NCBI RefSeq assembly: GCF_013122565.1
Contig: NZ_CP053258.1
Length of the DNA stretch: 64,000 nt
Strand: one strand, 5' to 3'
DNA from: Escherichia coli
GTDB taxonomy: Bacteria > Pseudomonadota > Gammaproteobacteria > Enterobacterales > Enterobacteriaceae
The position numbers and the translations under genes are program-made. The stretch's first letter is position 1. Each line of letters opens with the position of its first letter. Positions 3,180 through 43,452 of the stretch are shown here, piece by piece. The notes beneath the pieces are model-generated. The model was not told the DNA's origin. It saw only the letters and a program-made list of their open reading frames with translations, and did no database searches.

Positions 3180-4297
3180 CCGCCCCCTCTATTGCTTAAA
3201 ACTTTTTCAGCTTGTGATTTCCAGAATTCTTTTTTCCACAGGTTAAATTCTTGACGATTATTTATACCTGAACCTTTTTTATTTCCATTTGGGTGCTGAC
3301 CAGCGTTATTTGTACTTGAACCATGATGTTTATCTGGCATAGCAGTAATTGGCCCTTGTGATTGCTGCCTGTCATGGTGCAATACTATTACATTCCCTTG
3401 CCTATCGCTCGGAGATAAACCAAATGGATGAGGAGCATCATCACTGTTCATAAAAATAATTCTATTAAGCTCGGAATCACTTAAGTGACTTAAATCCGTG
3501 TAACCTGATACATCTAAAGTTAATCCTCTGCTATCAGTAAAAGTAACAGTTAAACCCAGAGGATCGATCCAACTTATTGGATTAGGCGCATATTGGTATA
3601 AGTTTATCCCACCCGCCAGCCCTATCGGGTCCTGACTGATAAACCTCCCGCACTCCGGCGCATAATACCTGAACAGATTGTAATGCAGTCCCGTCTCTTC
3701 ATCATAATACTGCCCCGGCAGCCGCAGCGGTTGCTCAAAGTACGCCCCGCTGTTGCTGATGTCGCCCCGGTTTTCACCAAATCCCGCCTGATAGCCCGCC
3801 CACACCAGCGTCCCGTCCGCCGCGGTCACCTCCTGTACCGTGCCCGTCAGGTCCGTGTGGTAATACCAGATTTTTTGACTCTCTCCGCGCCCGGTGATGG
3901 CGGCCACCGGCGTGTACGGCTGTTCCGCGTCGTACAGGTATGTCCGCTTTCCCTGCCACGTTGTCTCCTGCAACAGCCGGAACCCTTCCCACACAAACGT
4001 TGTCCGGCTTCGTTCTCCCCGGTCGGTATGGAGATTGCTGGTCGCCTTGCTGATGCGCCTGCCCAGCGCATCATACTGATACCGCGTCTCGCTGTTGCTG
4101 CTGATGACCCGCGTTAACTGACCCTGCGCGTTCCACTCCAGCTGTTGGTCCCTGCGCTCTGTCAGTTCGCCCCATTCGTTATAGCGGTAACGGTCACGCC
4201 CGTAGCCCGGCAGGCGGTTATCCGGCACCGCTCCCTGATGCTCATCCGTCAGCAGGTTGCCCGCTTTGTCGTAATAATAATGGTCATGGTCGTACAT
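3170..4297 (-). CDS. orphan Rhs C-terminal fragment 4: core repeat, DPLGL, His-rich HNH-like tip
   Basis: About 0.75 kb near-identical to the 3' core of the main rhs (homology to ~4335), then a divergent tip with VLHHDRQQSQGP...KHHG; no N-terminus of its own. Confidence 0.7.
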   Translation of the reverse strand: MYDHDHYYYDKAGNLLTDEHQGAVPDNRLPGYGRDRYRYNEWGELTERRDQQLEWNAQGQLTRVISSNSETRYQYDALGRRISKATSNLHTDRGERSRTTFVWEGFRLLQETTWQGKRTYLYDAEQPYTPVAAITGRGESQKIWYYHTDLTGTVQEVTAADGTLVWAGYQAGFGENRGDISNSGAYFEQPLRLPGQYYDEETGLHYNLFRYYAPECGRFISQDPIGLAGGINLYQYAPNPISWIDPLGLTVTFTDSRGLTLDVSGYTDLSHLSDSELNRIIFMNSDDAPHPFGLSPSDRQGNVIVLHHDRQQSQGPITAMPDKHHGSSTNNAGQHPNGNKKGSGINNRQEFNLWKKEFWKSQAEKVLSNRGGGCV

Positions 4298-4376
4298 CTG
4301 CCCCGTGCGACTGGTCAGCCAGCCGCTGCGATCATACGCAAAATGCCCCCATCCGCATGCAAGCAGTATTTATCCT

Positions 4377-4682
4377 TTAGGAAAAGAGATTTATAGCTTT
4401 CTCTTGAAGTTCTATACCTATATCCTCAAGTTTGATCAGCTCGTCCTTACTGTACATTCCCTCCCGAAAAGAAAACATTCCATATACATCCATTAGTGCC
4501 AATCCTAAAACTTTTGGAACCATAATTTCATCAGCATATATTTCCGCCAAAAAATCCAGCGCCTTATATAATTCTTCAATTTCATTATCAAAAAAATCTT
4601 TCTTGAGTCTTAATCTAACAGGTATTGAATCATCTCCTAATAATTTATCGACCACTATTTTCAATGCAATCTCTTTATCCAT
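4377..4682 (-). CDS. putative immunity protein for orphan rhs module 3
   Basis: 101 aa AT-rich ORF immediately downstream of the orphan toxin tip. Confidence 0.45.
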   Translation of the reverse strand: MDKEIALKIVVDKLLGDDSIPVRLRLKKDFFDNEIEELYKALDFLAEIYADEIMVPKVLGLALMDVYGMFSFREGMYSKDELIKLEDIGIELQEKAINLFS

Positions 4683-4698
4683 ATATCATTTCCTGTCT

Positions 4699-6315
4699 TT
4701 AACAAGATCTAATAGCATTTGATGGGACATGGCCTTCCACAAGTACTTCTCCAGAACTAACTGCATAGTTACGGGCTGGTCCTTTTAATCCAGCATCCGT
4801 TGCTTTCTCTACCGTGGATAAGTCAATAATATTCCGATTACCTTTAACATCAGGAATAACATCGTCAGTATCAAATGTAACTGTAGTTTGGCCTGGTTCA
4901 CGGTATCGTACTGCTACATATTCATTTACGGTAGTTGAAATGAATTGTGAGCCTTTAAACGAATCATTACTACCATTTCTAACATGACCAGCAGCGCTCA
5001 TTCCTCGCCCCGGGTTCTTTGCAGATAGCCCCTCACTAATAGATTCATCCGCACGAATATTTCGAAATACCTTGATTAAGCCAAGAGGATCAATCCAGCT
5101 AATCGGATTCGGCGCATACCTGTAAAGATTCAGACCGCCACGGATCGAAATCGGATCCTGACTGATAAACCTCCCGCACTCCGGCGCATAATACCTGAAC
5201 AGATTGTAATGCAGCCCCGTCTCTTCATCATAATACTGCCCCGGCAGCCGCAGTGGTTGCTCAAAGTACGCCCCGCTGTTGCTGATGTCGCCCCGGTTTT
5301 CGCCAAATCCCGCCTGGTAGCCCGCCCACACCAGCGTCCCGTCCGGCGCGGTCACCTCCTGTACCGTGCCCGTCAGGTCCGTGTGGTAATACCAGATTTT
5401 TTGACTCTCTCCGCGCCCCGTGATGGCTGCCACCGGCGTGTACGGCTGTTCCGCGTCGTACAGGTATGTCCGCTTCCCCTGCCACGTTGTCTCCTGTAAC
5501 AGCCGGAACCCTTCCCACACAAACGTCGTCTGCCGCTGTTCCCTCTGGTCCGTATGGCGGCCATATGTCGCCTTGCTGATGCGCCTGCCCAGCGCATCAT
5601 ACTGATACCGCGTCTCGCTGTTGCTGCTGATGACCCGCGTTAACTGGCCCTGCGCGTTCCACTCCAGTTGCTGGTCCCTGCGCTCTGTCAGTTCGCCCCA
5701 TTCGTTATAGCGGTAGCGGTCACGCCCGTAGCCCGGCAGGCGGTTATCCGGCACCGCTCCCTGATGCTCATCCGTCAGCAGATTGCCCGCTTTGTCGTAA
5801 TAATAATGGTCATGGTCGTACATCTGACCCGTGCGACTGGTCAGCCAGCCGCTGCGGTCATAGCTGAACACCAGGCAACCGCGCAGTTTGTCATTGATGC
5901 CGCCGACTTCACCGTCTGCGTTCCAGATATAATCCCGCGCTGTCACGCTGTCTTTCTGCGCCGGGGGGTTACCGGCCTGCTGCGGATTCTGGCTGCCGCC
6001 TGGCAGGCTGCGCTGCCAGCTTAACCGGTTATCGGCGTTGTAGCCGCTGAACGTCGCCAGTTTCCCCTGGGTGCGCATCACCTGACGGTGCAGGCTGTCA
6101 CGCTCATATTCACTGACCGTGATACCGTCCAGTGCCGTCTGGAGCAGATGCCCGCTGCCGTAGTAAAGATGGCTGAGATGCTGCCCGTCCGGCAGGGTAA
6201 TGCCGGTGGGATTGCCCAGCGCGTCACGCTGATATTTTATGCTGCCGTGCACGCTGTGCTCTGCCGTCAGCCAGCCGCTGCGGTCATACGCAAAACGCAC
6301 CGTGTCCGCCTGCAA
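4699..6315 (-). CDS. orphan Rhs C-terminal fragment 3: core repeat, DPLGL, ADP-ribosyltransferase-like tip
   Basis: About 1.4 kb rhs core homology; tip has VFRNIRAD...SQFISTT...GEVLVEG, resembling the pertussis-toxin S1 R / STS / E pattern. Confidence 0.7.
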   Translation of the reverse strand: MQADTVRFAYDRSGWLTAEHSVHGSIKYQRDALGNPTGITLPDGQHLSHLYYGSGHLLQTALDGITVSEYERDSLHRQVMRTQGKLATFSGYNADNRLSWQRSLPGGSQNPQQAGNPPAQKDSVTARDYIWNADGEVGGINDKLRGCLVFSYDRSGWLTSRTGQMYDHDHYYYDKAGNLLTDEHQGAVPDNRLPGYGRDRYRYNEWGELTERRDQQLEWNAQGQLTRVISSNSETRYQYDALGRRISKATYGRHTDQREQRQTTFVWEGFRLLQETTWQGKRTYLYDAEQPYTPVAAITGRGESQKIWYYHTDLTGTVQEVTAPDGTLVWAGYQAGFGENRGDISNSGAYFEQPLRLPGQYYDEETGLHYNLFRYYAPECGRFISQDPISIRGGLNLYRYAPNPISWIDPLGLIKVFRNIRADESISEGLSAKNPGRGMSAAGHVRNGSNDSFKGSQFISTTVNEYVAVRYREPGQTTVTFDTDDVIPDVKGNRNIIDLSTVEKATDAGLKGPARNYAVSSGEVLVEGHVPSNAIRSC

Positions 6316-6488
6316 CTAGCTGTTCAGATGGTGAATTTAACTACACCTTCTGGTTATCACCGTATTCAAGTGCCGCGATGCAACTACTGGGAAACTACAC
6401 TCATTCTCTTATTATTTTTAGAAATTTTCATCTATTAAATAATACACATGACCGATATTATTTAACCCTGCTGGGTATAACTGAAAAA

Positions 6489-7340
6489 TTATTTATTTTT
6501 AATTAAATTCATTAAATCCCAAACATTGCTATCATAATGATTGAAACCTTGAATCACAAGATAAGACAATGCTTTCATATCCAACAAAAATCTGATTTTC
6601 CCGTCTATAATTTTTGTATTTTCCGTTATAAACAATCGTTCCAATTTAACAAGATTACTTATTTTAGCTACGCTTGGAATATCACCCATTTTTGAAAAAG
6701 ATATTTTTTTAATTGAAGGTAATTTACTTACATCTTCAATGATTGACACTGCCATTTTTTTGCATAAAGATAAAGACACTTCTTCTATATTTTTCAAACC
6801 ATCTAAAAAAGTCGTGTCCGAAGCCTTAGATAATCCAGATAACTTGATGCTCCTTAAAGTCTTGATAGATGATAAATTAGGGATTGTTTGAATATTGCTA
6901 TTTTTTATCTCTAATGATTGCAAGAATGATCTCCCCGCAACATGCTCTTTTTTTTCTTTAAAATCTATCAATGTTATTTTTTCCAGAGTTCTGTGATTAA
7001 ACAAATTATCAATTCCATTTCGACCTATTAATACAGCCTCTTTTAAAAATGGGAAATATGATAAATCAAGTCTCATTTTATCATCATTCAAAAGATGGAT
7101 GAGTTGTATTTTTTTCAACGAATACAGTTGTGATATATCCTTTATTTTATTGCCTGTGATATATATTTCATTAATGAAATTAATTTCATCAAGAAATGAT
7201 AAATCAGTTATAAGCGGTGACAAAACCAACCCGTTAACTTTCTTTTCCTTCATCGTGTCAACAATATGACTTGTATCGTCATGCTTTTCATACACAAGGA
7301 CACGACTTCCCCGTACACCATAATTTTCCACTAGTCTCAT
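6489..7340 (-). CDS. putative immunity protein, leucine-rich-repeat-like, for orphan rhs module 2
   Basis: 283 aa AT-rich ORF with repeated L-rich segments, directly downstream of the orphan tip. Confidence 0.45.
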   Translation of the reverse strand: MRLVENYGVRGSRVLVYEKHDDTSHIVDTMKEKKVNGLVLSPLITDLSFLDEINFINEIYITGNKIKDISQLYSLKKIQLIHLLNDDKMRLDLSYFPFLKEAVLIGRNGIDNLFNHRTLEKITLIDFKEKKEHVAGRSFLQSLEIKNSNIQTIPNLSSIKTLRSIKLSGLSKASDTTFLDGLKNIEEVSLSLCKKMAVSIIEDVSKLPSIKKISFSKMGDIPSVAKISNLVKLERLFITENTKIIDGKIRFLLDMKALSYLVIQGFNHYDSNVWDLMNLIKNK

Positions 7341-7359
7341 ATATTTCCCCTTAAATAAA

Positions 7360-8820
7360 TCAACACTCCCCCTTCACTCTAAAATCTTGATCTGAAACAT
7401 TTCCTGTATTTGGTGGTCGTTTTTCATTACTGGTTACTCCTCTTCCTCCATTTTTAGCTATTTTCATTGCCTCTAAATTATTTAGCCATTGTTTACTAAT
7501 TCCAGCATATTTATCAAAATTCAACGAATCCAACATTGCCTGAGTTAACTTTCCACTTCGGGCATGTTGCAACATTCTCTGATATAGATTTTTTGTTTGA
7601 CCTGCATACATTTTACCCGCACCTTCATCAAAAAACTCATAAATTGCTTGCCCTTTATATTTTGCAGTAACATCTCTTATTTGTTCTAAAAAATCACTAG
7701 CGAGTCTTACTAATCCCCAAGGATCAATCCACCTCAGCGGATTCGGCGCATACCTGTAAAGATTCAGCCCACCCCGGATCGAAATCGGGTCCTGGCTTAT
7801 GAACCTTCCGCACTCCGGCGCATAATACCTGAACAGATTGTAATGCAGCCCCGTCTCTTCATCATAATACTGCCCCGGCAGCCGCAGCGGTTGCTCAAAG
7901 TACGCCCCGCTGTTGCTGATGTCGCCCCGATTTTCTCCAAATCCCGCCTGGTAGCCCGCCCACACCAGCCTCCCGTCCGGCGCGGTCACCTCCTGTACCG
8001 TGCCCGTCAGGTCCGTGTGGTAATACCAGATTTTTTGACTCTCTCCGCGCCCGGTGATGGCCGCCACTGGCGTGTACGGCTGTTCCGCGTCGTACAGGTA
8101 TGTCCGCTTTCCCTGCCACGTTGTCTCCTGCAACAGCCGGAACCCTTCCCACACAAACGTCGTCCGCCGCTGTTCCCTCTGGACCGTATGGCGGCCATAT
8201 GTCGCCTTGCTGATGCGCCTGCCCAGCGCATCATACTGATACCGCGTCTCGCTGTTGCTGCTGATGACCCGCGTTAACTGGCCCTGCGCGTTCCACTCCA
8301 GTTGCTGGTCCCTGCGCTCTGTCAGTTCGCCCCATTCGTTATAGCGGTAACGGTCACGCCCGTAGCCCGGCAGGCGGTTATCCATCACCGCGCTCTGATA
8401 CTCGTCCGTCAGCAGATTGCCCGCTTTGTCGTAATAATAATGGTCATGGTCGTACATCTGCCCCGTGCGGCTGGTCAGCCAGCCGCTGCGGTCATACGCA
8501 AAGCGCACCGTGTCCGCCTGCATGTGGTGCAGCCGTTCCCCTTCTTTCGTCGGGGTGAGCGTCACTTCCGTTATCTGGTCAAGACGGTTGTAGCTGAAGG
8601 TCCGTGTACTGTGCTGCGTGTCACTGCGCAACAGGCGGCCCAGCGCATCACGCTCCTGCCGCTCATTACGCCCCCCGCCTTCTGTACCCTGCGTCTGGAT
8701 GATGACCGGATACCCGCCCGCATTCAGCGCCAAATGGCTGAGAGAAGCGGGATTTGAGATCGGCACGGGCGTTACCGTGAAGATCTCGGAGGGATGTCTG
8801 ATCCTGCTTGCGGATAACAA
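7360..8820 (-). CDS. orphan Rhs C-terminal fragment 2: core repeat, DPWGL, GIY-YIG-like tip
   Basis: About 1.1 kb rhs core homology; tip has AIYEFFDEGAGKMYAGQTKNLYQRMLQH; the first ~30 codons are antisense to the SymE-like remnant. Confidence 0.7.
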   Translation of the reverse strand: MLSASRIRHPSEIFTVTPVPISNPASLSHLALNAGGYPVIIQTQGTEGGGRNERQERDALGRLLRSDTQHSTRTFSYNRLDQITEVTLTPTKEGERLHHMQADTVRFAYDRSGWLTSRTGQMYDHDHYYYDKAGNLLTDEYQSAVMDNRLPGYGRDRYRYNEWGELTERRDQQLEWNAQGQLTRVISSNSETRYQYDALGRRISKATYGRHTVQREQRRTTFVWEGFRLLQETTWQGKRTYLYDAEQPYTPVAAITGRGESQKIWYYHTDLTGTVQEVTAPDGRLVWAGYQAGFGENRGDISNSGAYFEQPLRLPGQYYDEETGLHYNLFRYYAPECGRFISQDPISIRGGLNLYRYAPNPLRWIDPWGLVRLASDFLEQIRDVTAKYKGQAIYEFFDEGAGKMYAGQTKNLYQRMLQHARSGKLTQAMLDSLNFDKYAGISKQWLNNLEAMKIAKNGGRGVTSNEKRPPNTGNVSDQDFRVKGEC

Positions 8821-8914
8821 CGAAGTACAGGAACTGCGCAGGGAGCTTTATCAGGTTAAACAGGCAGTTAAGGGGATGCGGGACGGGATGTTTAGTGTGC
8901 TGAACGAAAGTTAA
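8729..8914 (+). pseudogene. SymE-like 3' remnant (last ~62 codons) fused to an rhs-fragment boundary
   Basis: Near-identical to 2497..2683; homology to the first copy starts abruptly at the junction with rhs-core sequence (~8728). Confidence 0.45.
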
Positions 8915-8922
8915 ATAATAAA

Positions 8923-8955
8923 AAAGCCGGGAAGGTAAATAAGCTTCCCGGCTTT
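8923..8955. terminator. bidirectional intrinsic terminator hairpin
   Basis: 12 bp perfect stem aaagccgggaag / cttcccggcttt with 9 nt loop, flanked by A-run and T-run. Confidence 0.6.
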
Positions 8956-8975
8956 CCACAACAATTTTAACTTAA

Positions 8976-9464
8976 TTAATCATAAGCATCGCCGTAATTT
9001 TCATATTTCCAATAAATATATTTACCACCTGAGCTATATAATTTATGCAATAATTCTGTAAAAGTCATTGCAATAATTGGACAACTACCTACAACGCCAT
9101 GTATCTCATAATTGCTATCATAACAGCGTCCATTTCTTTCTGTAGAAAAATCAATGGATAAATAATCATTATTATCGGTCCTGCAAATTAAGTACCATGA
9201 AGATGATATATCATCCTCACATGGCTCACCAACTATAAATTTATTTGCCTGTAATATTTCATTATTTTTCAAAATAGTGAAGGAGATTTCCTGCTCTTCA
9301 GAGCAAAACAATTTTATTCCATTACATATTTTGTAAAAACGAACAACATCATCAGGATATTTTAAATAATCAGATGGTAATAAAGGCAAATTACCATCTG
9401 GTGGAATAACTTCACATCTGTTATCATTTTTTATCAAGTCAAGTAATTCATCAATGCCATTCAT
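8976..9464 (-). CDS. putative immunity protein (SUKH-like) for orphan rhs module 1
   Basis: 162 aa AT-rich ORF downstream of the orphan tip; LLPSDYLKY...FYKICNG pattern. Confidence 0.5.
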   Translation of the reverse strand: MNGIDELLDLIKNDNRCEVIPPDGNLPLLPSDYLKYPDDVVRFYKICNGIKLFCSEEQEISFTILKNNEILQANKFIVGEPCEDDISSSWYLICRTDNNDYLSIDFSTERNGRCYDSNYEIHGVVGSCPIIAMTFTELLHKLYSSGGKYIYWKYENYGDAYD

Positions 9465-9473
9465 ATTACCACC

Positions 9474-11312
9474 TTAAAAAATAACAGTATCAAACTTCCC
9501 AGAGTATATAAACTGGTTCAATGCCCGGTAATATGCTTCCCTACTGGCAACAGGAACATTTGCGGCATCAAACATTCGTTCAGTAAGATCTTTCATTTCT
9601 CTGCTACTTACTGTTGTCCAATCCACTTTCCCACCAACTCTTCTTCCGGTTTTCTGCTCTAACCAATCTCTATATACTTTTTTTGTTGCAGCATGATTAG
9701 CCTCGGATAATGCAATTGTTGGTGACTTTGAAGGATATTTCCCTCCATAAGATGGCACATTCTTAGACATCCAAATATCAAGCACACCATGATGGTTTTC
9801 TAAAGAGGAATTAATTGGTCGATAAGGAACAACATCAAACTCTTTAACTTCACCGCACTTAAGTCCAAGGGGATCTATCCACCCCAGCGGATTCGGCGCA
9901 TAAGCATACTGGTTCAGCCCACCCGCCAGCCCTATCGGGTCCTGGCTTACGAACCGCCCGCACTCCGGCGCATAATACCTGAACAGATTATAGTGCAGCC
10001 CCGTCTCTTCATCATAATACTGCCCCGGCAGCCGCAGCGGCTGTTCAAAGTACGCCCCGCTGTTGCTGATATCGCCCCGGTTTTCGCCAAATCCCGCCTG
10101 GTAGCCCGCCCACACCAGCGTCCCGTCCGCCGCGGTCACCTCCTGTACCGTGCCCGTCAGGTCCGTGTGGTAATACCAGATTTTTTGACTCTCTCCGCGC
10201 CCCGTGATGGCGGCCACCGGCGTGTACGGCTGTTCCGCGTCGTACAGGTATGTCCGCTTTCCCTGCCACGTTGTCTCCTGCAACAGCCGGAACCCTTCCC
10301 ACACAAACGTTGTCCGGCTTCGTTCTCCCCGGTCCGTATGGCGGCCATATGTCGCCTTGCTGATGCGCCTGCCCAGCGCATCATACTGATACCGCGTCTC
10401 GCTGTTGCTGCTGATGACCCGCGTTAACTGGCCCTGCGCGTTCCACTCCAGCTGCTGGTCCCTGCGCTCTGTCAGTTCGCCCCATTCGTTATAGCGGTAG
10501 CGGTCACGCCCGTAGCCCGGCAGGCGGTTATCCATCACCGCTCCCTGATATTCATCCGTCAGCAGGTTGCCCGCTTTATCGTAATAATAATGGTCATGGT
10601 CATACATCTGCCCCGTGCGGCTGGTCAGCCAGCCGCTGCGGTCATAGCTGAACACCAGGCAACCGCGCAGTTTGTCATTGATGCCGCCGACTTCACCGTC
10701 TGCGTTCCAGATATAGTCCCGCGCTGTCACGCTGTCGCTGTGTGACGGGGGTGTGGCTGTCTGCTGTGGGTTCTGGCTGCCGCCTGGCAGGCTGCGCTGC
10801 CAGCTTAACCGGTTGTCGGCGTTGTAGCCGCTGAACGTCGCCAGTTTCCCCTGGGTGCGCATCACCTGACGGTGCAGACTGTCACGCTCATATTCACTGA
10901 CCGTGATACCGTCCAGTGCCGTCTGGAGCAGATGTCCGCTGCCGTAGTAAAGATGGCTGAGGTGCTGCCCGTTCGGTAACGTGATGTCGGTGGGATTGCC
11001 CAGCGCGTCACGCTGATATTTTATGCTGCCGTGCACGCTGTGCTCTGCCGTCAGCCACCCGCTGCGGTCATACGCAAAGCGCACCGTGTCCGCCTGCATG
11101 TGGTGCAGCCGTTCCCCTTCTTTCGTCGGGGTGAGCGTCACTTCCGTTATCTGGTCAAGACGGTTGTAGCTGAAGGTCCGTGTACTGTGCTGCGTGTCAC
11201 TGCGCAACAGGCGGCCCAGCGCATCACGCTCCTGTCGCTCATTACGCACCCCGCCTTCTGTACCCTGCGTCTGGATGATGACCGGATACCCGCCCGCATT
11301 CAGCACAAACAT
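9474..11312 (-). CDS. orphan Rhs C-terminal fragment 1: core repeat, DPLGL, unassigned toxin tip
   Basis: About 1.6 kb homologous to main rhs (to ~11476, where an in-frame stop precedes it); first ATG at 11312; tip ~130 aa with no recognizable motif. Confidence 0.7.
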   Translation of the reverse strand: MFVLNAGGYPVIIQTQGTEGGVRNERQERDALGRLLRSDTQHSTRTFSYNRLDQITEVTLTPTKEGERLHHMQADTVRFAYDRSGWLTAEHSVHGSIKYQRDALGNPTDITLPNGQHLSHLYYGSGHLLQTALDGITVSEYERDSLHRQVMRTQGKLATFSGYNADNRLSWQRSLPGGSQNPQQTATPPSHSDSVTARDYIWNADGEVGGINDKLRGCLVFSYDRSGWLTSRTGQMYDHDHYYYDKAGNLLTDEYQGAVMDNRLPGYGRDRYRYNEWGELTERRDQQLEWNAQGQLTRVISSNSETRYQYDALGRRISKATYGRHTDRGERSRTTFVWEGFRLLQETTWQGKRTYLYDAEQPYTPVAAITGRGESQKIWYYHTDLTGTVQEVTAADGTLVWAGYQAGFGENRGDISNSGAYFEQPLRLPGQYYDEETGLHYNLFRYYAPECGRFVSQDPIGLAGGLNQYAYAPNPLGWIDPLGLKCGEVKEFDVVPYRPINSSLENHHGVLDIWMSKNVPSYGGKYPSKSPTIALSEANHAATKKVYRDWLEQKTGRRVGGKVDWTTVSSREMKDLTERMFDAANVPVASREAYYRALNQFIYSGKFDTVIF

Positions 11313-11517
11313 CCGTATCAGACCGTCCGGGCGCTGTTCTCCCGTCAGCCGTCCGTCCGCATCGTGACTGAACCGGTAAAGCGCTCCGTTGCCGTTGCTC
11401 AGACTGGCAATCCATCCCTCCGCGGTATAATGCCAGCGCGTCTCCCGTTTCTCTTCATCCGTGTGGCACGCCAGTTAACATACGTCTACTGACAAAACCA
11501 TTAGTCCAAACAAAATC

Positions 11518-16474
<4,957 letters not shown>

Positions 16475-36364: not shown

Positions 36365-38998
36365 TTAATCCGTTTCAAAAATAATCTGTTCATCCTCATC
36401 AACACGAATGCGGATTTGCGTGATGGCCGTTTTCTCTGTCATCGCCTGCAACCAGTAACGGGACAGTTGTGGGAGGATATGTTGTTCGATATAGCCGATG
36501 AGCAAACGAGCGCCGGTTTCGTGCATCGGGCAGCGCGACACAATATGCGTAATCAATTCATCGCCATACACCAGTGAAACGCCATGCTGCTCCGCCATCC
36601 GATCCATCAATCTGCCAAGATGCAGGCGGGCAATAACACCACGCGCGGTCTCATCCAGCGGTAAATAAGGAATAACCGTCACACGCCCCAGGAAAGCCGC
36701 CGGGAAGTGTTTACGTAACTCCGGCATTAACGCCTCTTTTAATCCTGCCGAATCAGGCATCAGCGCCGGATCCTCACAGAGCTGGCTGATAAGTTCCGCT
36801 CCCGCGTTAGTAGTCAACAACAGCGTGGTATTTTTGAAATCGATGTGGACACCTTCGCCATCTTCCATCGCCCCCTTATCAAACACCTGGAAGAACAGCT
36901 CGTGGACGTCGTGATGGGCTTTTTCAATTTCATCCAGCAATACCACGCTCCAGGGATGGCGGCGTACCGCTTCTGTCAACACGCCGCCTTCGCCATAACC
37001 CACGTAGCCGGGCGGTGCGCCTTTCAGCGTGGAAACGGTGTGGGACTCCTGAAACTCGCTCATGTTGATGGTGATCAGGTTCTGCTCACCGCCATAGATA
37101 GCCTCTGCCAGCGCCAGAGCGGTCTCAGTCTTGCCAACACCGGACGGCCCGGCCAGCAAAAAGACGCCCACAGGCTTACGCGGGTCACCTAAACCCGCCC
37201 GCGCGGTCTGGATACGCTCGCCAATCTGCGCCAGCGCGTCCCTCTGCCCGGTAACACGCTGCGCCAGACGGGCGGGCAGTTCCAGGATCTGACTGGCCTC
37301 ATCTTTCACCATGCGTCCGGCGGGAATACCGGTCCAGTCGGAGACAATCTCTGCCACCACGGTTGCACTGACTTCCGGGTACACGACGGGGTTTTCACCC
37401 TGCCAACCTCTTAATGCCGTTTCTGCCTGTTGTAGAGTGATTTCGTCGCGCTCGCCGGGCTCTGCGCCGCGTTGCTCGTGTAAACTGCGAACCAACTCCA
37501 GTTCCTGCTGCCACCGCGCTTCGGTGTCAGAAAGATCGGCATTCAGCGATATAATCCGCGCCGCCAGTACATCGCCCCGCTCCGAGCGGATACCCATTTT
37601 TTCCTGCTTTAATAACAACTCCTGCTCCAGTTCGGCAGCGTTGAGCTGCTGGCGCAGATACTGGACTCTCGCAGGCGGGGTATGCAGCGACAGCGCTACA
37701 CGGGCCGCCGCCGTATCCAGCAGGCTGATGGCCTTATCCGGTAGTTGCCGGGACGGAATGTACCGGTGAGAAAGCTGTACCGCGGCGCGCACGGCCTCAT
37801 CAAGGATCAGGACGTCATGGTGTTTTTCAAGCGTGGTGACTAACCCGCGTACCATCTCAACAGCCGCAACCTCTTCTGGCTCAGCAACCTGCAATACCTG
37901 AAAACGCCGGGTCAGCGCCGGATCCTTTTCGATATGGCGTTTGTACTCGCTCCAGGTAGTTGCGCCGATGGTGCGCAGGGTTCCACGCGCCAGCGCCGGT
38001 TTCAGCAGGTTGGCAGCATCCCCCGTACCGGATGTACCACCAGCGCCCACCAGCGTGTGAACTTCATCAACAAAAAGGATCACCGGCTGCGGCGAGCGCG
38101 CGGCCTCTTCCAACAACGCTTTCAGGCGGGATTCAAATTCACCCTTCATGGACGCCCCTGCCAGCAGCGCTCCAACATCCAGTGACAGCAACCGCACGTT
38201 ACGCAGTGAAGGCGGTACTTCCCCCCCGGCAATCGCCAGCGCGAATCCTTCCACCACTGCCGTTTTCCCGACTCCCGCCTCGCCGGTCAGCAGCGGGTTG
38301 TTCTGGCGACGGCGCAGCAGAATATCCGTCATAGTACGGATCTCGTGTTCGCGACCGGTGACCGGATCGATATTGCCTTCACGGGCCAGCGCAGTCATGT
38401 CCTGGCAGTATTTCGCCAGCGCGGATTTGCTTCCGGTTGATTCGCCGGCAAAGACCTGGCTAGCTTCCCCCGGTACTGCAGAATTTAAATCCGAGCCGTC
38501 ATAAGGCATTTCTGTTAATTCAGGAGATGAAGTGATTAAAGACGGAAGAATATCTAATAGTTCATCTACCGGTAGCTCTGCCAATGGCGCACAAATATTT
38601 TTTAACACCCGACACAATTCTGGCGTGGTTAACCAGGCAAGTAATAACCATCCACTACGAATTTTTTGATCGCCAAAGCGGATACTTGCCAACATCCAGG
38701 CTTTTTCAACAGAAAGATCGATATGATGGGAAAAATCGTTAATTACACTCGCTCCGGCAGGCAATATATTCAATTGCTGAATTAACGCCTTCTCAACATC
38801 AGCAGATGTTATTTGATAATGTCGAAGCACATTGTGAATGTCATTCTCTGGTTGTTGTATTAACTGATGCAACCAATGTGTCAGTTCGACATAAGGATTA
38901 GCGCGTAATTTACAGAACGTTGTCGCAGATTCCAAAGATCTAAACAAAGATTTGGTTAGCTTTCCATATAGTGCACTGCGCGAAACAGGAGTGTCCAT
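36365..38998 (-). CDS. clpV: T6SS AAA+ ATPase ClpV (TssH)
   Basis: 877 aa; two Walker A motifs (GEAGVGKTAVVEG, GPSGVGKTETA); Clp N-domain. Confidence 0.92.
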   Translation of the reverse strand: MDTPVSRSALYGKLTKSLFRSLESATTFCKLRANPYVELTHWLHQLIQQPENDIHNVLRHYQITSADVEKALIQQLNILPAGASVINDFSHHIDLSVEKAWMLASIRFGDQKIRSGWLLLAWLTTPELCRVLKNICAPLAELPVDELLDILPSLITSSPELTEMPYDGSDLNSAVPGEASQVFAGESTGSKSALAKYCQDMTALAREGNIDPVTGREHEIRTMTDILLRRRQNNPLLTGEAGVGKTAVVEGFALAIAGGEVPPSLRNVRLLSLDVGALLAGASMKGEFESRLKALLEEAARSPQPVILFVDEVHTLVGAGGTSGTGDAANLLKPALARGTLRTIGATTWSEYKRHIEKDPALTRRFQVLQVAEPEEVAAVEMVRGLVTTLEKHHDVLILDEAVRAAVQLSHRYIPSRQLPDKAISLLDTAAARVALSLHTPPARVQYLRQQLNAAELEQELLLKQEKMGIRSERGDVLAARIISLNADLSDTEARWQQELELVRSLHEQRGAEPGERDEITLQQAETALRGWQGENPVVYPEVSATVVAEIVSDWTGIPAGRMVKDEASQILELPARLAQRVTGQRDALAQIGERIQTARAGLGDPRKPVGVFLLAGPSGVGKTETALALAEAIYGGEQNLITINMSEFQESHTVSTLKGAPPGYVGYGEGGVLTEAVRRHPWSVVLLDEIEKAHHDVHELFFQVFDKGAMEDGEGVHIDFKNTTLLLTTNAGAELISQLCEDPALMPDSAGLKEALMPELRKHFPAAFLGRVTVIPYLPLDETARGVIARLHLGRLMDRMAEQHGVSLVYGDELITHIVSRCPMHETGARLLIGYIEQHILPQLSRYWLQAMTEKTAITQIRIRVDEDEQIIFETD

Positions 38999-39330
38999 CT
39001 GTTACACCTGATGATGTAAGAACATATAAATGATACATAAACATAACTGTACCGATTAAAACTTCTAATTAATAGAATTATCAAAAAGGCAGAATGAAAC
39101 AATGATGCATATCACAGAACCCAATGTAATATAGCAGGTAGTATCGTTTTTATGGTGATATTCAATAGCGTAAGCCAATTTCATACAAGCCATGAATATA
39201 TTAAATTGAAAATCGCCAATATATATTTCTGTAAAAACTTATATTGATAAAGCAAATTGATCAGCATTGCTTATCTAAAAATTTAGAAAACTTATTCTTT
39301 TGAAAGAAACACTCTACACAGTGATACACA
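38999..39330. promoter_or_regulatory. AT-rich divergent intergenic region between the two T6SS operons
   Basis: 332 bp non-coding; contains imperfect palindrome aagcaaattgatcagcattgctt centred on a GATC site. Confidence 0.4.
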
Positions 39331-40245
39331 ATGAAACAAAATATTACGTGGGGACTCCAAAAAAAACAGGCGCACGGGATCGCCGATAACACAATTTACG
39401 CGACTGAAGGAACACAAATTATCTTTACCGTTACCTCTCCCTGGATTCCTGTTTTTGAGGTGAATGATGATGTAAAGATTGCCCTCAGTCTGACCCGCCA
39501 CGAAGAAGCATGGTGGATTATTAATCAGTCTACCGAATATTGCTGTACGGTAAACGACCAGATTGTGGAACCTCATCACCGTATGCGTCTGAATGAAGGC
39601 GATCAGATAGAATGGGGGTTATCTTCATGGTGCCTTGTGCATGGCACCCCATCATCTCCGGACATGAGCGCAGTAAAAACAATATCGCAGACTGCCATCA
39701 CGTCGGAAACAATAACCGAATATCTGGATCTGGATTGGTTCAGGCAGCAGCATCTGACATCACAAAATCCATTCGATATCATTCCTGTTCATGGAGCCTC
39801 CTCCACCGGAGAAGATGCGGAAAAAGAAAATGCCCTGACCCGACTTTATCAGGAATACCGCGAGGCGTTGTTATCTCCCGAAGAAGATCTTCATCGCCAT
39901 GCTGATCCTTTTCCCTTTAACGAAGAGCCCTCCTCGCAGGATCTGGATTCATTGCGTGACCTGGTCACCGAAGCCGATACATTGCAGGATATGGTCACTG
40001 GTGGGTTAAGCATTGACGCTATTCTCAATGTACTGGATGCCACCGGCGAAGATGAAACTATCTGGCCTGTCGAAAAGACTCCCCCTGATATCCTGCATTT
40101 ACTTTCCCCGGAATACGCCCCGGAAACAGCGCATAACACCGTACTGCCAGATCTGACACGCAAAGAGCACCGCATTATCGGCATTGACAGCCATTACCGG
40201 ATAAACCCGGCACAACACGGAGATATCTCTCATGACAAACAATAA
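39331..40245 (+). CDS. FHA-domain T6SS-associated protein (TagH-like)
   Basis: 304 aa; N-terminal FHA-like signature (SLTRHEEAWWIIN, STEYCCTVNDQ, RLNEGDQIEWG); first gene of the + operon. Confidence 0.55.
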   Translation: MKQNITWGLQKKQAHGIADNTIYATEGTQIIFTVTSPWIPVFEVNDDVKIALSLTRHEEAWWIINQSTEYCCTVNDQIVEPHHRMRLNEGDQIEWGLSSWCLVHGTPSSPDMSAVKTISQTAITSETITEYLDLDWFRQQHLTSQNPFDIIPVHGASSTGEDAEKENALTRLYQEYREALLSPEEDLHRHADPFPFNEEPSSQDLDSLRDLVTEADTLQDMVTGGLSIDAILNVLDATGEDETIWPVEKTPPDILHLLSPEYAPETAHNTVLPDLTRKEHRIIGIDSHYRINPAQHGDISHDKQ

Positions 40246-41568: not shown

Positions 41569-43452
41569 ATGGATCCACGGCTACTGGAATACTACAACCG
41601 CGAACTGAGCTATCTGCGGGAAACGGGAGCCGAATTTGCCGCCCGTCATCCCAAAGTCGCCGCCCGGCTGGGCATGCAGGGAACGGATATTGCCGATCCG
41701 TATGTGGAGCGGATGGTCGAAGCCTTCAGCTTCCTGACCGCCCGCACGCAGCTAAAAATTGACGCTGAATTCCCTCGTTTCACCCAGCGCCTGCTGGAAG
41801 TGGTCAGCCCCAATTACGTCACACCCACGCCCTCAATGAGCGTGGCGCAGTTGCATCCCGATACGGAAGAAGGCGATCTGGCAAAAGGATTTACCGTCCC
41901 GCGCGACACGGCCTTTTTCTCCGCCATTCCGGAAGGCGAAAGCACTGCCTGCCAGTTTCGCAGCAGCCAGGATGTAACGCTGTGGCCGCTCGCCATCGAA
42001 GAGGCGCGACTGACCGCCGCGCCGCCGGATATGCCTGCCCTGCACCGCTACCTGCCGGCCAACATTCACGTCGCCGGGGCGCTGCGTATTACCCTGCGCA
42101 CCTTTGGTGAACTAACGTTCAGTCAGCTTGCCGGACTGGACAGGCTGCCGTTTTATCTCTGCGGCGAGGAGCGTACGGCCTCACACCTGTTCGAACTTCT
42201 ACATACCAGCGCCATCGCGACCCTGGCTGGCATTCCGGGACATTTTGACGGCGCGTTGGATGTGAATCTGCAACAGCCCGTTATGTACGAAGGCCTGGAG
42301 CCGGATCAGGGGCTGCTGCCGCTGGCGTGGAACGTGTTTCACGGTCATAACCTGCTGCATGAATATTTTGCCTGTCCGGAACGCTTCTATTTTTTCACCC
42401 CGACAGGCCTGTCTGCCGGATTACAGAAAATTGACGGTGGCGTGGCGGAGATTGTTATCCTGCTGAACCGCCTGCCGCCGGACTGGCTGATCCACCAGAC
42501 AAATACGGCACAGTTCAGCCTGTTCTGTACCCCGGTTATCAACCTGTTTCCCCGCGTCACCGCCCGGATCGATGTCACGCACAGCACGACGGAACAGCAT
42601 CTGGTGGTGGACAGAACCCATCCGCTGGATTATGAGGTGTTCTCGGTCCAGGAAGTGGAAGGGCTGGAAACCGACACCACACGGAAGATGGCCTTTCGCC
42701 CGCTCTACCACACCCGCAATAACGATGAAGGCAATCACGGGCGTTATTTTTCCCTGCGCCGGGAGCCGCGCCGCTTATCAGAAAACGCCCGCCGTTACGG
42801 TACCCGTACTCCCTATACGGGATCAGAAGTGTTCCTGTCGCTGGTTGACCAGTATGAAGCGCCGTACCCGGAAAATCTGCGCCACATCACCATCACGGCC
42901 ATGATCACTAACCGCGATCTGCCCTGTCTTATTGCCCGCAATGGCCGGGACGATCTAACCGTGGATGCGGCCATCCCGGTGGCGGGCGTAGGGCTTATCC
43001 GCCCGCCACGCTCGCCGCAGCCCCCGCTGGCTGAACGTGAGATGGCATGGCGGTTGATCCGCCAGTTATCTTTTAATTATCTGCCGCTGGCCGATCTGGA
43101 TCACCGTACCGGCGGCCAGGCGTTGCGAGATCTGCTGAACCTGTTTATTCCTGCTCATGACAGTCCGCAATCGCGCCAGGTGCGCAGCCTGATTGGTTGT
43201 AAAACGACCCCGGTCACCCGCCGTCTGCCCGGTTCCGGACTACTGGTCTATGGGCGTGGCGTCAGTTGTGAACTGACGGTGGATGAAGAAGGTTTTTCCG
43301 GCATCAGTCCGTATCTGTTCGGCCTGGTGCTGGAACACTATATCGCCCGCCATGTTTCCATTAATACCTTCTCGCAGATGACGCTGCACAGCATGCAGCG
43401 TGGCAAAATTATGACCTGGCCTGTCAGGGCGGGACAGCGGGGAAGCGTATGA
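41569..43452 (+). CDS. tssF: T6SS baseplate protein TssF
   Basis: 627 aa; N-terminus MDPRLLEYYNRELSYLRETGAEFAARHPKVAARLG typical of TssF. Confidence 0.9.
   Translation: MDPRLLEYYNRELSYLRETGAEFAARHPKVAARLGMQGTDIADPYVERMVEAFSFLTARTQLKIDAEFPRFTQRLLEVVSPNYVTPTPSMSVAQLHPDTEEGDLAKGFTVPRDTAFFSAIPEGESTACQFRSSQDVTLWPLAIEEARLTAAPPDMPALHRYLPANIHVAGALRITLRTFGELTFSQLAGLDRLPFYLCGEERTASHLFELLHTSAIATLAGIPGHFDGALDVNLQQPVMYEGLEPDQGLLPLAWNVFHGHNLLHEYFACPERFYFFTPTGLSAGLQKIDGGVAEIVILLNRLPPDWLIHQTNTAQFSLFCTPVINLFPRVTARIDVTHSTTEQHLVVDRTHPLDYEVFSVQEVEGLETDTTRKMAFRPLYHTRNNDEGNHGRYFSLRREPRRLSENARRYGTRTPYTGSEVFLSLVDQYEAPYPENLRHITITAMITNRDLPCLIARNGRDDLTVDAAIPVAGVGLIRPPRSPQPPLAEREMAWRLIRQLSFNYLPLADLDHRTGGQALRDLLNLFIPAHDSPQSRQVRSLIGCKTTPVTRRLPGSGLLVYGRGVSCELTVDEEGFSGISPYLFGLVLEHYIARHVSINTFSQMTLHSMQRGKIMTWPVRAGQRGSV

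What the first reader, a model, noticed from the sequence alone, without database searches (positions are those of the whole stretch)
38999..39330. Divergent T6SS control region with a GATC-centred palindrome
The 332 bp AT-rich spacer between clpV and the FHA gene should hold promoters for both operons. It contains an imperfect inverted repeat aagcaaattgatcagcattgctt centred on a Dam GATC site, a layout that could link methylation to repressor binding, as described for other enterobacterial T6SS promoters.
Basis: inference. Interest (0 to 1): 0.4.

Follow-up and report, generated by a model that had tools for sequence, protein, structure and literature searches.

The report
T6SS divergent promoter spacer, chance palindrome
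The AT-rich gap between two back-to-back type VI secretion operons is a real control region, matching one in Salmonella that H-NS and Fur are reported to bind, but the small GATC palindrome flagged in it looks like chance, and the only conserved piece lies 150 bases away.

Summary
The 332-bp spacer (38999-39330, 28% GC against 51% for the window) does lie between divergent tssH/clpV and a 304-aa gene. That gene is TagK (NCBIfam equivalog), not a canonical FHA gene.

The quoted 23-mer is at 39250-39272, but it is weak:
- Only the outer 6-bp arms pair (12 of 23 positions).
- The GATC (39259-39262) sits in the 11-nt loop, half a base off the arms' axis.
- 6-bp inverted repeats are expected about 2.6 times in shuffles of this spacer. 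One GATC is also the expected number.

Across 17 orthologous spacers the palindrome has median conservation (rank 152 of 310). It is unrecognisable outside Escherichia. Its GATC is lost in 2 of 5 Escherichia lineages, and every sampled E. coli has a mismatched arm.

The only strongly conserved element is at 39095-39117, a fixed ~102-106 nt from the clpV ATG. Outside Escherichia it reads as a clpV promoter, TTGnnA-16-TATCAT, with a GATC just upstream of the -10. The window has CATCAT and TATC instead.

The locus is the Escherichia orthologue of the Salmonella SPI-6 tssH / tagKJ-tssEFGA control region, where H-NS and Fur binding have been reported. A silenced divergent promoter region is supported. 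A Dam-linked palindromic operator is not. The finding is ordinary.

The parts
36365..38998 (-). tssH/clpV, first gene of the leftward unit
   Evidence: 877-aa ORF. TIGR03345 VI_ClpV1 1221 bits. RefSeq tssH in 97%-identical E. coli loci.
38999..39330 (.). 332-bp AT-rich divergent intergenic control region
   Evidence: GC 28% against 51% for the window, and the GC trough of the profile. No annotated feature in 119 E. coli genomes. Orthologous to the Salmonella SPI-6 tssH/tagK spacer, which H-NS binds.
39095..39117 (-). Only strongly conserved block of the spacer (plus strand TGAAACAATGATGCATATCACAG). It is the counterpart of the clpV core promoter of the orthologues, possibly with an overlapping TGAT-N4-ATCA operator.
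   Evidence: The best 15-nt conservation window of the whole spacer is 39100-39114, at 1.81 bits per column. It lies 102-106 nt from the clpV ATG in 13 of the 14 spacers matched, while its distance to tagK varies from 228 to 317 nt. TTGnnA-16-TATCAT falls at this aligned position in 11 of 12 non-Escherichia orthologues.
39102..39107 (-). -10-equivalent hexamer, CATCAT here and TATCAT in other genera. The -35-like ATTACA lies at 39125-39130.
   Evidence: Own sigma-70 matrix scores 1.9 in the window against 7.7-8.8 in several Salmonella, Citrobacter and Enterobacter orthologues. Function is inferred, not shown.
39110..39113 (.). TATC where all 12 non-Escherichia orthologues have GATC, immediately upstream of the -10
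   Evidence: Alignment: GATC in 12 of 12 non-Escherichia sequences and TATC in 5 of 5 Escherichia lineages.
39250..39272 (.). The reported imperfect inverted repeat: 6-bp arms and an 11-nt centre holding TGATCA. Judged a chance feature.
   Evidence: It is within chance expectation, has median conservation, and is unique in the window.
39259..39262 (.). Only GATC (Dam site) of the spacer
   Evidence: 0.8 expected. It is lost in the E69-type and E1V33-type Escherichia lineages.
39246..39275 (+). Extended gapped hairpin GATAA-A-GCAA..TG / CA..TTGC-TTATC around the palindrome
   Evidence: DNA fold -4.3 kcal/mol, z = -1.1. One C-G, U.G, U-A series at 39253/39269, no better than shuffles at 279 of 500. 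The tagK leader RNA folds at z = -0.23.
39064..39082 (-). Best Fur-consensus match (13 of 19), Escherichia-specific, inside the predicted clpV leader
   Evidence: A best match of 13 of 19 or more occurs in 28% of shuffles, so it is a candidate only.
39331..40245 (+). tagK, first gene of the rightward tagK-tagJ-tssE-tssF-tssG-tssA unit
   Evidence: NF033418 T6SS_TagK 549.6 bits. Pfam hits for the downstream genes are ImpE, GPW_gp25, TssF and TssG. RefSeq annotation.

Best explanation
The spacer is the bidirectional control region of an SPI-6-type T6SS inserted at tRNA-Asp next to dnaQ in an Escherichia coli-like genome. It most likely works as its Salmonella orthologue is described. The very AT-rich DNA is coated by H-NS, which silences both the leftward tssH (clpV) unit and the rightward tagKJ-tssEFGA unit. 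Other regulators, Fur in Salmonella, act near the clpV start.

The functional core on the clpV side is the conserved block at 39095-39117, about 100 nt upstream of the clpV ATG. In other genera this block carries a good sigma-70 promoter, TTGnnA-16-TATCAT, with a flanking conserved TGAT-N4-ATCA dyad and a GATC. In this Escherichia lineage two substitutions give CATCAT and TATC. The promoter is therefore weak, and no Dam site remains at the conserved position.

The palindrome at 39250-39272 and its GATC are fortuitous sequence in the poorly conserved tagK-proximal half, not a dedicated methylation-sensitive operator.

Shown here: coordinates, composition, synteny, conservation pattern and chance statistics. 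Inferred: H-NS or Fur binding in this organism, the position of the clpV promoter, and that the block has promoter or operator function.
For: Identity and setting:
- Flanking genes identified and synteny with SPI-6.
- Housekeeping flank 95-99% identical to E. coli.
- GC trough of 27-30% exactly over the spacer.

Orthologous region in Salmonella:
- H-NS occupies it in vivo, with differential binding inside macrophages (PMC11770342).
- H-NS binds the clpV promoter in EMSA and ChIP-qPCR, and expression rises in an hns mutant (PMC10657408).
- Reviews cite direct Fur binding to the clpV promoter.
- sciF and sciG are silent at TPM 1-3.5 (PMC4643027 supplement).

Conserved block:
- Phylogenetic footprint over 17 spacers puts the block on top at 1.81 bits and the palindrome at the median.
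- The block is at a fixed distance from the clpV ATG but not from tagK.
- A positionally conserved -35/-10 pair is present in 11 of 12 non-Escherichia orthologues.

Palindrome:
- Its statistics are within chance.
- It varies within Escherichia.
- It is unique in the window.
- No Rfam family matches.
Against: - No experimental data exist for this Escherichia locus.
- No transcription start site was found even for Salmonella in the papers I could read. The two primary papers (Wang 2019 and Brunet 2015, Infect Immun) are not held.
- The window's version of the block promoter scores only 1.9 on my matrix.
- The spacer as a whole lacks any good sigma-70 match: best score 5.6, and only 0.4% of shuffles score as low. 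The real clpV and tagK promoters here are therefore unlocated and may depend on an activator.
- Absolute promoter-matrix scores of 7.7-8.8 are common in shuffled AT-rich DNA (64% of shuffles). The argument rests on positional conservation, not on the score.
- Fur-consensus matches are not above chance and are not positionally conserved.
- The GATC and arms are retained in the window, MOD1 and all 6 sampled E. coli. A lineage-specific role cannot be excluded.
Confidence: 0.72

Rival explanations
1. The palindrome is a genuine operator. A dimeric repressor such as Fur binds AAGCAA-N11-TTGCTT or the wider GATAA...TTATC repeat. Dam methylation of the central TGATCA modulates that binding, giving a sci1-like epigenetic switch on the tagK-side promoter.
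For: - The GATC lies in a TGATCA (BclI) context, like GATC-I of EAEC sci1.
- An 11/19 Fur-consensus match covers it at 39253-39271. That equals the sci1 fur2 box.
- The outer GATAA/TTATC arms are symmetric about the GATC axis and invariant in all 10 Escherichia sequences.
- The site lies 59-81 nt upstream of the tagK ATG, where a promoter could sit.
- A repeat spanning a GATC occurs in only 3.5% of shuffles.
Against: - There is a single GATC, and 0.8 are expected.
- About 6 matches of 11/19 or better are expected per shuffled spacer.
- The GATC is lost in 2 of 5 Escherichia lineages, and the inner arm is mismatched in all 6 sampled E. coli.
- There is no counterpart in Salmonella, Citrobacter or Enterobacter.
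- Conservation rank is median.
- No credible -10/-35 pair overlaps it in the window. TAAAGC lacks the -7 T.
- The motif is not repeated at other T6SS promoters in the window.
- The 3.5% figure is post hoc.
Confidence: 0.07
2. The inverted repeat acts as an RNA hairpin in the tagK 5' leader (39246-39275) and affects mRNA stability or translation.
For: - An 11-pair gapped stem is predicted.
- 96% of cells are paired across 7 distinct Escherichia sequences.
- Pair 39253/39269 shows C-G, U.G and U-A, a wobble-mediated compensatory series.
Against: - Covariation is no better than shuffles: 279 of 500 reach it.
- Fold energies are unremarkable, z = -1.1 for the hairpin and -0.23 for the leader.
- Two lineages break loop-proximal pairs.
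- There is no Rfam hit.
- It is not known whether transcription starts upstream of it.
- The element is absent outside Escherichia.
Confidence: 0.06
3. The conserved block (39095-39117) is mainly an operator for a CRP/FNR-family or other dimeric regulator that recognises TGAT-N4-ATCA or TGTGA-N6-TCATT. It is not simply a core promoter, and it is the true specific control point of the locus.
For: - The dyad half-sites are the invariant positions while the 4-nt centre varies between clades.
- There is an 8/10 match to the FNR core in 16 of 17 spacers and a 14-15/22 match to the CRP consensus in 10 of 12 non-Escherichia spacers, at the same aligned position only.
- Conservation extends across the spacer upstream of the -10 and is stronger than at the -35.
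Against: - The consensus matches are modest.
- Salmonella has CCTGA instead of TGTGA.
- The window scores below 14/22 for CRP.
- Overlap with a conserved -10 could explain much of the conservation.
- No experimental link to CRP or FNR was found in the papers read.
- The block is not repeated elsewhere in the window.
Confidence: 0.15

Closest known systems
Salmonella enterica SPI-6 T6SS sciF(tagK)-sciG(clpV/tssH) intergenic promoter region
   Same: - Same gene order on both sides and the same tRNA-Asp insertion context.
- Similar spacer length (332 against 367-368 bp) and AT richness (26-28% GC).
- Shared conserved block about 102-106 nt from the clpV ATG.
- The Salmonella region is a documented H-NS target and, per reviews, a Fur target.
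   Different: - TagK is only 55% identical.
- The spacers align only over the clpV-proximal ~150 nt.
- Salmonella has TTGCTA-16-TATCAT with a GATC next to the -10. The window has ATTACA-17-CATCAT and TATC.
- The window's palindrome has no Salmonella counterpart.
EAEC sci1 T6SS promoter Fur-Dam epigenetic switch (Brunet et al. 2011, PMC3145626)
   Same: An enterobacterial T6SS promoter region. The GATC is embedded in a TGATCA hexamer. AT-rich Fur-like sequence lies nearby.
   Different: - sci1 belongs to a different T6SS cluster and its promoter lies upstream of tssB.
- It has three GATCs within 53 nt.
- Its 13/19 Fur box overlaps the -10 and contains GATC-I, with demonstrated reciprocal exclusion of Fur and Dam.
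- Here there is one GATC, no -10 overlap, an 11/19 match at chance level, and no conservation.
EHEC tssB-hcp3 bidirectional T6SS promoter (PMC13141884)
   Same: A silent, H-NS-repressed bidirectional spacer between two divergent T6SS operons at the aspV locus of E. coli.
   Different: A different T6SS cluster and different flanking genes (tssB and hcp3). There is no DNA similarity: the window spacer matches only 119 of 5426 E. coli genomes.

Membership tests
SPI-6-type tssH / tagKJ-tssEFGA divergent control region | Spacer flanked by divergent tssH (clpV) and tagK-tagJ-tssE-tssF-tssG-tssA | tested here: met
   The same layout is found in Salmonella, Citrobacter and Enterobacter loci.
SPI-6-type tssH / tagKJ-tssEFGA divergent control region | Strongly AT-rich relative to its flanks (H-NS substrate) | tested here: met
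   28% GC against 51%. Orthologues are 23-30% GC.
SPI-6-type tssH / tagKJ-tssEFGA divergent control region | Shared conserved block about 100 nt upstream of the clpV ATG | tested here: met
   AAACAATGAT..ATCAC is invariant or nearly so in 16 of 17 spacers. The window carries the Escherichia variant (CATCAT, TATC).
SPI-6-type tssH / tagKJ-tssEFGA divergent control region | H-NS occupancy and silencing; Fur binding at the clpV promoter | not testable with these tools
   Known only for Salmonella. Matches to the H-NS motif (TCGATAAATT, from memory) and to the Fur consensus are at chance level in the window.
Fur-Dam epigenetic switch (EAEC sci1 type) | Fur box overlapping the -10 element | tested here: not met
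   No -10/-35 pair overlaps the palindrome. The best Fur match over it is 11/19, at chance level.
Fur-Dam epigenetic switch (EAEC sci1 type) | GATC inside the Fur box, with a cluster of GATC sites in the promoter | tested here: not met
   A single GATC in 332 bp with 0.8 expected. sci1 has 3 in 53 nt.
Fur-Dam epigenetic switch (EAEC sci1 type) | Regulator protects the GATC from Dam, and methylation lowers regulator affinity | not testable with these tools
   Needs methylation-sensitive digestion or SMRT sequencing, and EMSA.
Fur-Dam epigenetic switch (EAEC sci1 type) | Conservation of the GATC/operator among orthologous promoters | tested here: not met
   The GATC is lost in E69-type and E1V33-type Escherichia. 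The motif is absent in other genera.
Dam-dependent phase-variable promoters (pap, agn43, opvAB type) | Two or more GATC sites within regulator (Lrp/OxyR) binding sites (established knowledge) | tested here: not met
   One GATC only.
   Pfam FHA 20.3 bits against a cut-off of 20.7, with no stretch passing on its own. The protein is a TagK equivalog.

The most novel reading that the evidence does not exclude
The conserved 22-nt block, not the palindrome, is a composite -10/operator. Its invariant GATC in Salmonella, Citrobacter and Enterobacter (12 of 12) couples Dam methylation to repressor binding at the clpV promoter, as a sci1-like switch. The Escherichia lineage in this window has lost both the GATC and the strong -10 through two point changes (39107 and 39110). 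That would rewire or cripple control of its SPI-6-type T6SS.
Probability: 0.12. Interest if true: 0.5.

Novelty: new member of a known kind. Interest (0 to 1): 0.15.

Why it matters
It matters little. The analysis places this Escherichia spacer as an orthologue of an already studied Salmonella T6SS control region, and it removes a tempting but unsupported Dam/palindrome story. The useful by-product is a precise target for anyone studying SPI-6-type T6SS regulation: a 22-nt block about 100 nt upstream of clpV. That block is the only part of the spacer kept across four genera. It carries a GATC everywhere except in Escherichia.

Tried and rejected
- **Sigma-70 consensus scan.** No site inside the spacer. 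My own matrix gives a best score of 5.6, below 99.6% of shuffles. No confident promoter could therefore be assigned to either gene in the window.
- **Sigma-54 -24/-12 scan.** No match with up to 3 mismatches inside 38999-39330.
- **Fur-box consensus scan.** Best matches are 13/19 at 39064 and 39151 and 11/19 over the GATC. All are within shuffle expectation and not positionally conserved across orthologues.
- **H-NS motif TCGATAAATT (recalled from memory).** Two 8/10 matches against 1.1 expected, which is not significant.
- **Rfam at E up to 10.** Only a 17.7-bit TD-2 hit against a gathering score of 48.7, which is noise.
- **RNA or DNA hairpin at the palindrome.** Energies and covariation are not above controls.
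- **Same inverted repeat or conserved block at other places in the 64-kb window.** None found.
- **Experimental transcription start sites for Salmonella sciF/sciG.** Not found. One supplement lists the genes only as silent and another has no entry.
- **Primary papers.** Wang 2019 and Brunet 2015 are not held, so the exact Fur and H-NS footprints could not be mapped onto the alignment.
- **Salmonella undermethylated-GATC study (PMC7708049).** It does not list this locus.
- **Genome-contig scan with TagK.** It returned only 6 loci. The rest came from exact-protein look-ups.

Full report
**1. What is in the sequence**

The window has an 877-aa minus-strand ORF at 36365-38998 and a 304-aa plus-strand ORF at 39331-40245. 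They are separated by exactly 332 bp, 38999-39330.
- The left ORF is TssH/ClpV (TIGR03345, 1221 bits; Pfam AAA_2 and ClpB_D2-small).
- The right ORF is TagK (NF033418 equivalog, 549.6 bits against a cut-off of 200). RefSeq names it tagK in 97%-identical E. coli loci.
- The Pfam FHA hit on TagK is marginally sub-threshold (20.3 against 20.7 bits). 'FHA gene' is therefore an imprecise label.
- Downstream lie tagJ (ImpE), tssE, tssF, tssG and a tssA-like gene, then tRNA-Asp and dnaQ/rnhA. Upstream of clpV lie tssB, tssC, tae4/tai4, hcp, tssJ, tssK, tssL and tssM.
- The housekeeping flank is 95-99% identical to every E. coli genome.
- The T6SS spacer occurs in only 119 of 5426 complete E. coli genomes, at 93.7-95.5% identity.

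This is an SPI-6-type T6SS in an E. coli-like genome.

The spacer has 28% GC against 51% for the window and is the bottom of the local GC profile.

**2. The palindrome**

The quoted 23-mer is at 39250-39272 and contains the only GATC of the spacer, at 39259-39262.
- Only the outer 6-bp arms (AAGCAA/TTGCTT) are complementary. That is 12 of 23 positions, and the 11-nt centre is unpaired.
- The arms' axis is base 39261. The axis of GATC/TGATCA is 39260.5.
- Dinucleotide-preserving shuffles of the spacer give 2.6 inverted repeats of this kind (3 observed) and 0.8 GATC (1 observed).
- A repeat spanning a GATC appears in 3.5% of shuffles, but that test was defined after seeing the feature.
- Allowing a bulge, a longer hairpin (39246-39275, 11 pairs) can be drawn. 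Its DNA folding energy is -4.3 kcal/mol, z = -1.1, and 30 of 200 shuffles do as well.
- The tagK leader as RNA folds at z = -0.23.
- The motif occurs nowhere else in the 64 kb.
- Rfam finds nothing.

**3. Conservation**

I collected 17 orthologous clpV-tagK spacers.
- Five are Escherichia lineages: the window, E. coli, Escherichia sp. MOD1, the E69 type and the E1V33 type.
- Twelve come from Enterobacter, Citrobacter, Salmonella and metagenomes.

In a per-column information profile the palindrome window ranks 152 of 310, which is median. Outside Escherichia nothing alignable to it exists.

Within Escherichia:
- 8 of its 23 columns vary, against 97 of 332 for the whole spacer.
- All six sampled E. 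coli have AAGTAA in the left arm, a mismatch against TTGCTT.
- The E69 type has GTTC and the E1V33 type has AATC in place of GATC.
- One stem pair shows a C-G, U.G, U-A series, but this covariation is no better than shuffled controls at 279 of 500.

**4. What is conserved instead**

The best-conserved 15-mer of the whole spacer is 39100-39114, at 1.81 bits per column. It lies within a block at about 39095-39117, TGAAACAATGATGCATATCACAG.
- The block sits 102-106 nt from the clpV ATG in 13 of the 14 spacers matched. The exception is C. koseri at 135 nt, which has an insertion.
- Its distance to the tagK ATG ranges from 228 to 317 nt, so it belongs to the clpV side.
- Read in the clpV sense, 11 of 12 non-Escherichia orthologues have TTGnnA-16-TATCAT at exactly this aligned place. 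It is often the top minus-strand hit of my sigma-70 matrix.
- All 12 have a GATC immediately 5' of that -10.
- The five Escherichia lineages have CATCAT and TATC instead, through plus-strand changes at 39107 and 39110. The window's score drops to 1.9.
- The block also forms a TGAT-N4-ATCA dyad. It matches the FNR core at 8 of 10 and, outside Escherichia, the CRP consensus at 14-15 of 22, at this position only.
- Conservation extends into the promoter spacer more than into the -35. A repressor site overlapping the -10 is therefore plausible but unproven.

Two caveats apply.
- Matrix scores of 7.7 or more occur in 64% of shuffled AT-rich spacers. The evidence is positional conservation, not score.
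- The window's spacer is unusually poor in sigma-70-like pairs: best score 5.6, and only 0.4% of shuffles score as low. The tool scan finds none inside the spacer. There is also no sigma-54 match.

**5. Link to known biology**

In Salmonella Typhimurium the orthologous spacer (sciF/STM0271 to sciG/STM0272, 367 bp by the coordinates) has been studied.
[quoted passage not shown] H-NS ChIP signal there decreases inside macrophages (PMC11770342).
- H-NS binds the clpV promoter in EMSA and ChIP-qPCR, and clpV is derepressed in an hns mutant (PMC10657408).
- Reviews state that Fur represses the system by direct binding to the clpV promoter (PMC10482370 and PMC12288458; PMC13014557).
- sciF and sciG are essentially silent in standard and intramacrophage RNA-seq.
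- I could not read the two primary footprinting papers.
- From memory only, the Wang 2019 abstract says Fur protects several sites spanning the transcription start.

In the window, Fur-consensus matches are no more frequent than in shuffles and are not positionally conserved. They are 13/19 at 39064 and 39151 and 11/19 over the GATC.

**6.

The EAEC sci1 switch has these features (PMC3145626):
- a 13/19 Fur box on the -10;
- a GATC inside that box;
- three GATCs within 53 nt;
- demonstrated reciprocal exclusion of Fur and Dam.

The window shares only the TGATCA context of its single GATC. The defining layout features that can be tested in silico are not met (see the membership table). If any GATC in this family of spacers is a candidate for such coupling, it is the one next to the conserved -10 in Salmonella, Citrobacter and Enterobacter. 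That site is absent from this window. A Salmonella survey of undermethylated GATC loci does not list it.

**7. Verdict**

The sequence is there, but it is a weak, chance-level repeat, and the neighbouring gene is TagK.

- Supported: a divergent, probably H-NS-silenced T6SS control region.
- Not supported: a GATC-centred methylation-sensitive operator.

The locus is a new (Escherichia) member of an already characterised kind of control region. Interest is low.

Noticed in passing
window 39095-39117; L005-L016, L025, L027, L028 at the aligned position: The only strongly conserved block of the clpV-tagK spacer across Escherichia, Salmonella, Citrobacter and Enterobacter. Outside Escherichia it contains TATCAT with an adjacent invariant GATC (12 of 12). 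All Escherichia lineages have CATCAT and TATC.
   Followed up: yes
window 38999-39330: The spacer is depleted of sigma-70-like -35/-10 pairs relative to its own composition: best matrix score 5.6 against 8.4 +/- 1.4 in shuffles, with 0.4% of shuffles as low. The tool scan finds none. This is unusual for AT-rich, H-NS-type DNA.
   Followed up: partly
window 39246-39254 compared with L001 15547-15555 (E. coli MEI003 and 5 other E. coli): In E. coli the C-to-T change at the position of 39253 turns the left palindrome arm into TGATAAAGT. That is an extended -10-like element in the tagK sense (score 6.5 with TTTCCG 16 nt upstream). The window has TAAAGC and lacks the -7 T.
   Followed up: partly
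L016-L018 (metagenome and assembly contigs), 1-1162: In these contigs the gene called upstream of the spacer, in the clpV position, is an Rhs/YD-repeat protein, yet the clpV-proximal conserved block is still present 104 nt from its start. This may be a rearrangement or a chimeric assembly.
   Followed up: no
window 38868-38883 (minus strand, inside clpV codons ~39-44): TGACACATTGGTTGCA matches the sigma-54 -24/-12 consensus with one mismatch, but the mismatch is in the essential GG. It is probably fortuitous.
   Followed up: no
window 43235-43328 (+): ARAGORN calls a 94-nt 'tRNA-His' inside the tssF coding region (41569-43452). It is almost certainly a false positive.
   Followed up: no
window 3720-13186: Several near-identical repeated segments, for example AGCCGCAG.GGTTGCT / ACGCCCCGCTGTTGCT / TGCCACGTTGTCTCCT recurring at about 3.7, 5.2, 7.9, 10.0 and 12.4 kb. 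This is consistent with a tandem array of Rhs/VgrG-type effector genes upstream of the T6SS core.
   Followed up: no
window 39331 (tagK start): No recognisable Shine-Dalgarno sequence precedes the conserved tagK ATG in Escherichia (ACAGTGATACACAATG). Salmonella has AAGGGACATAATG.
   Followed up: no
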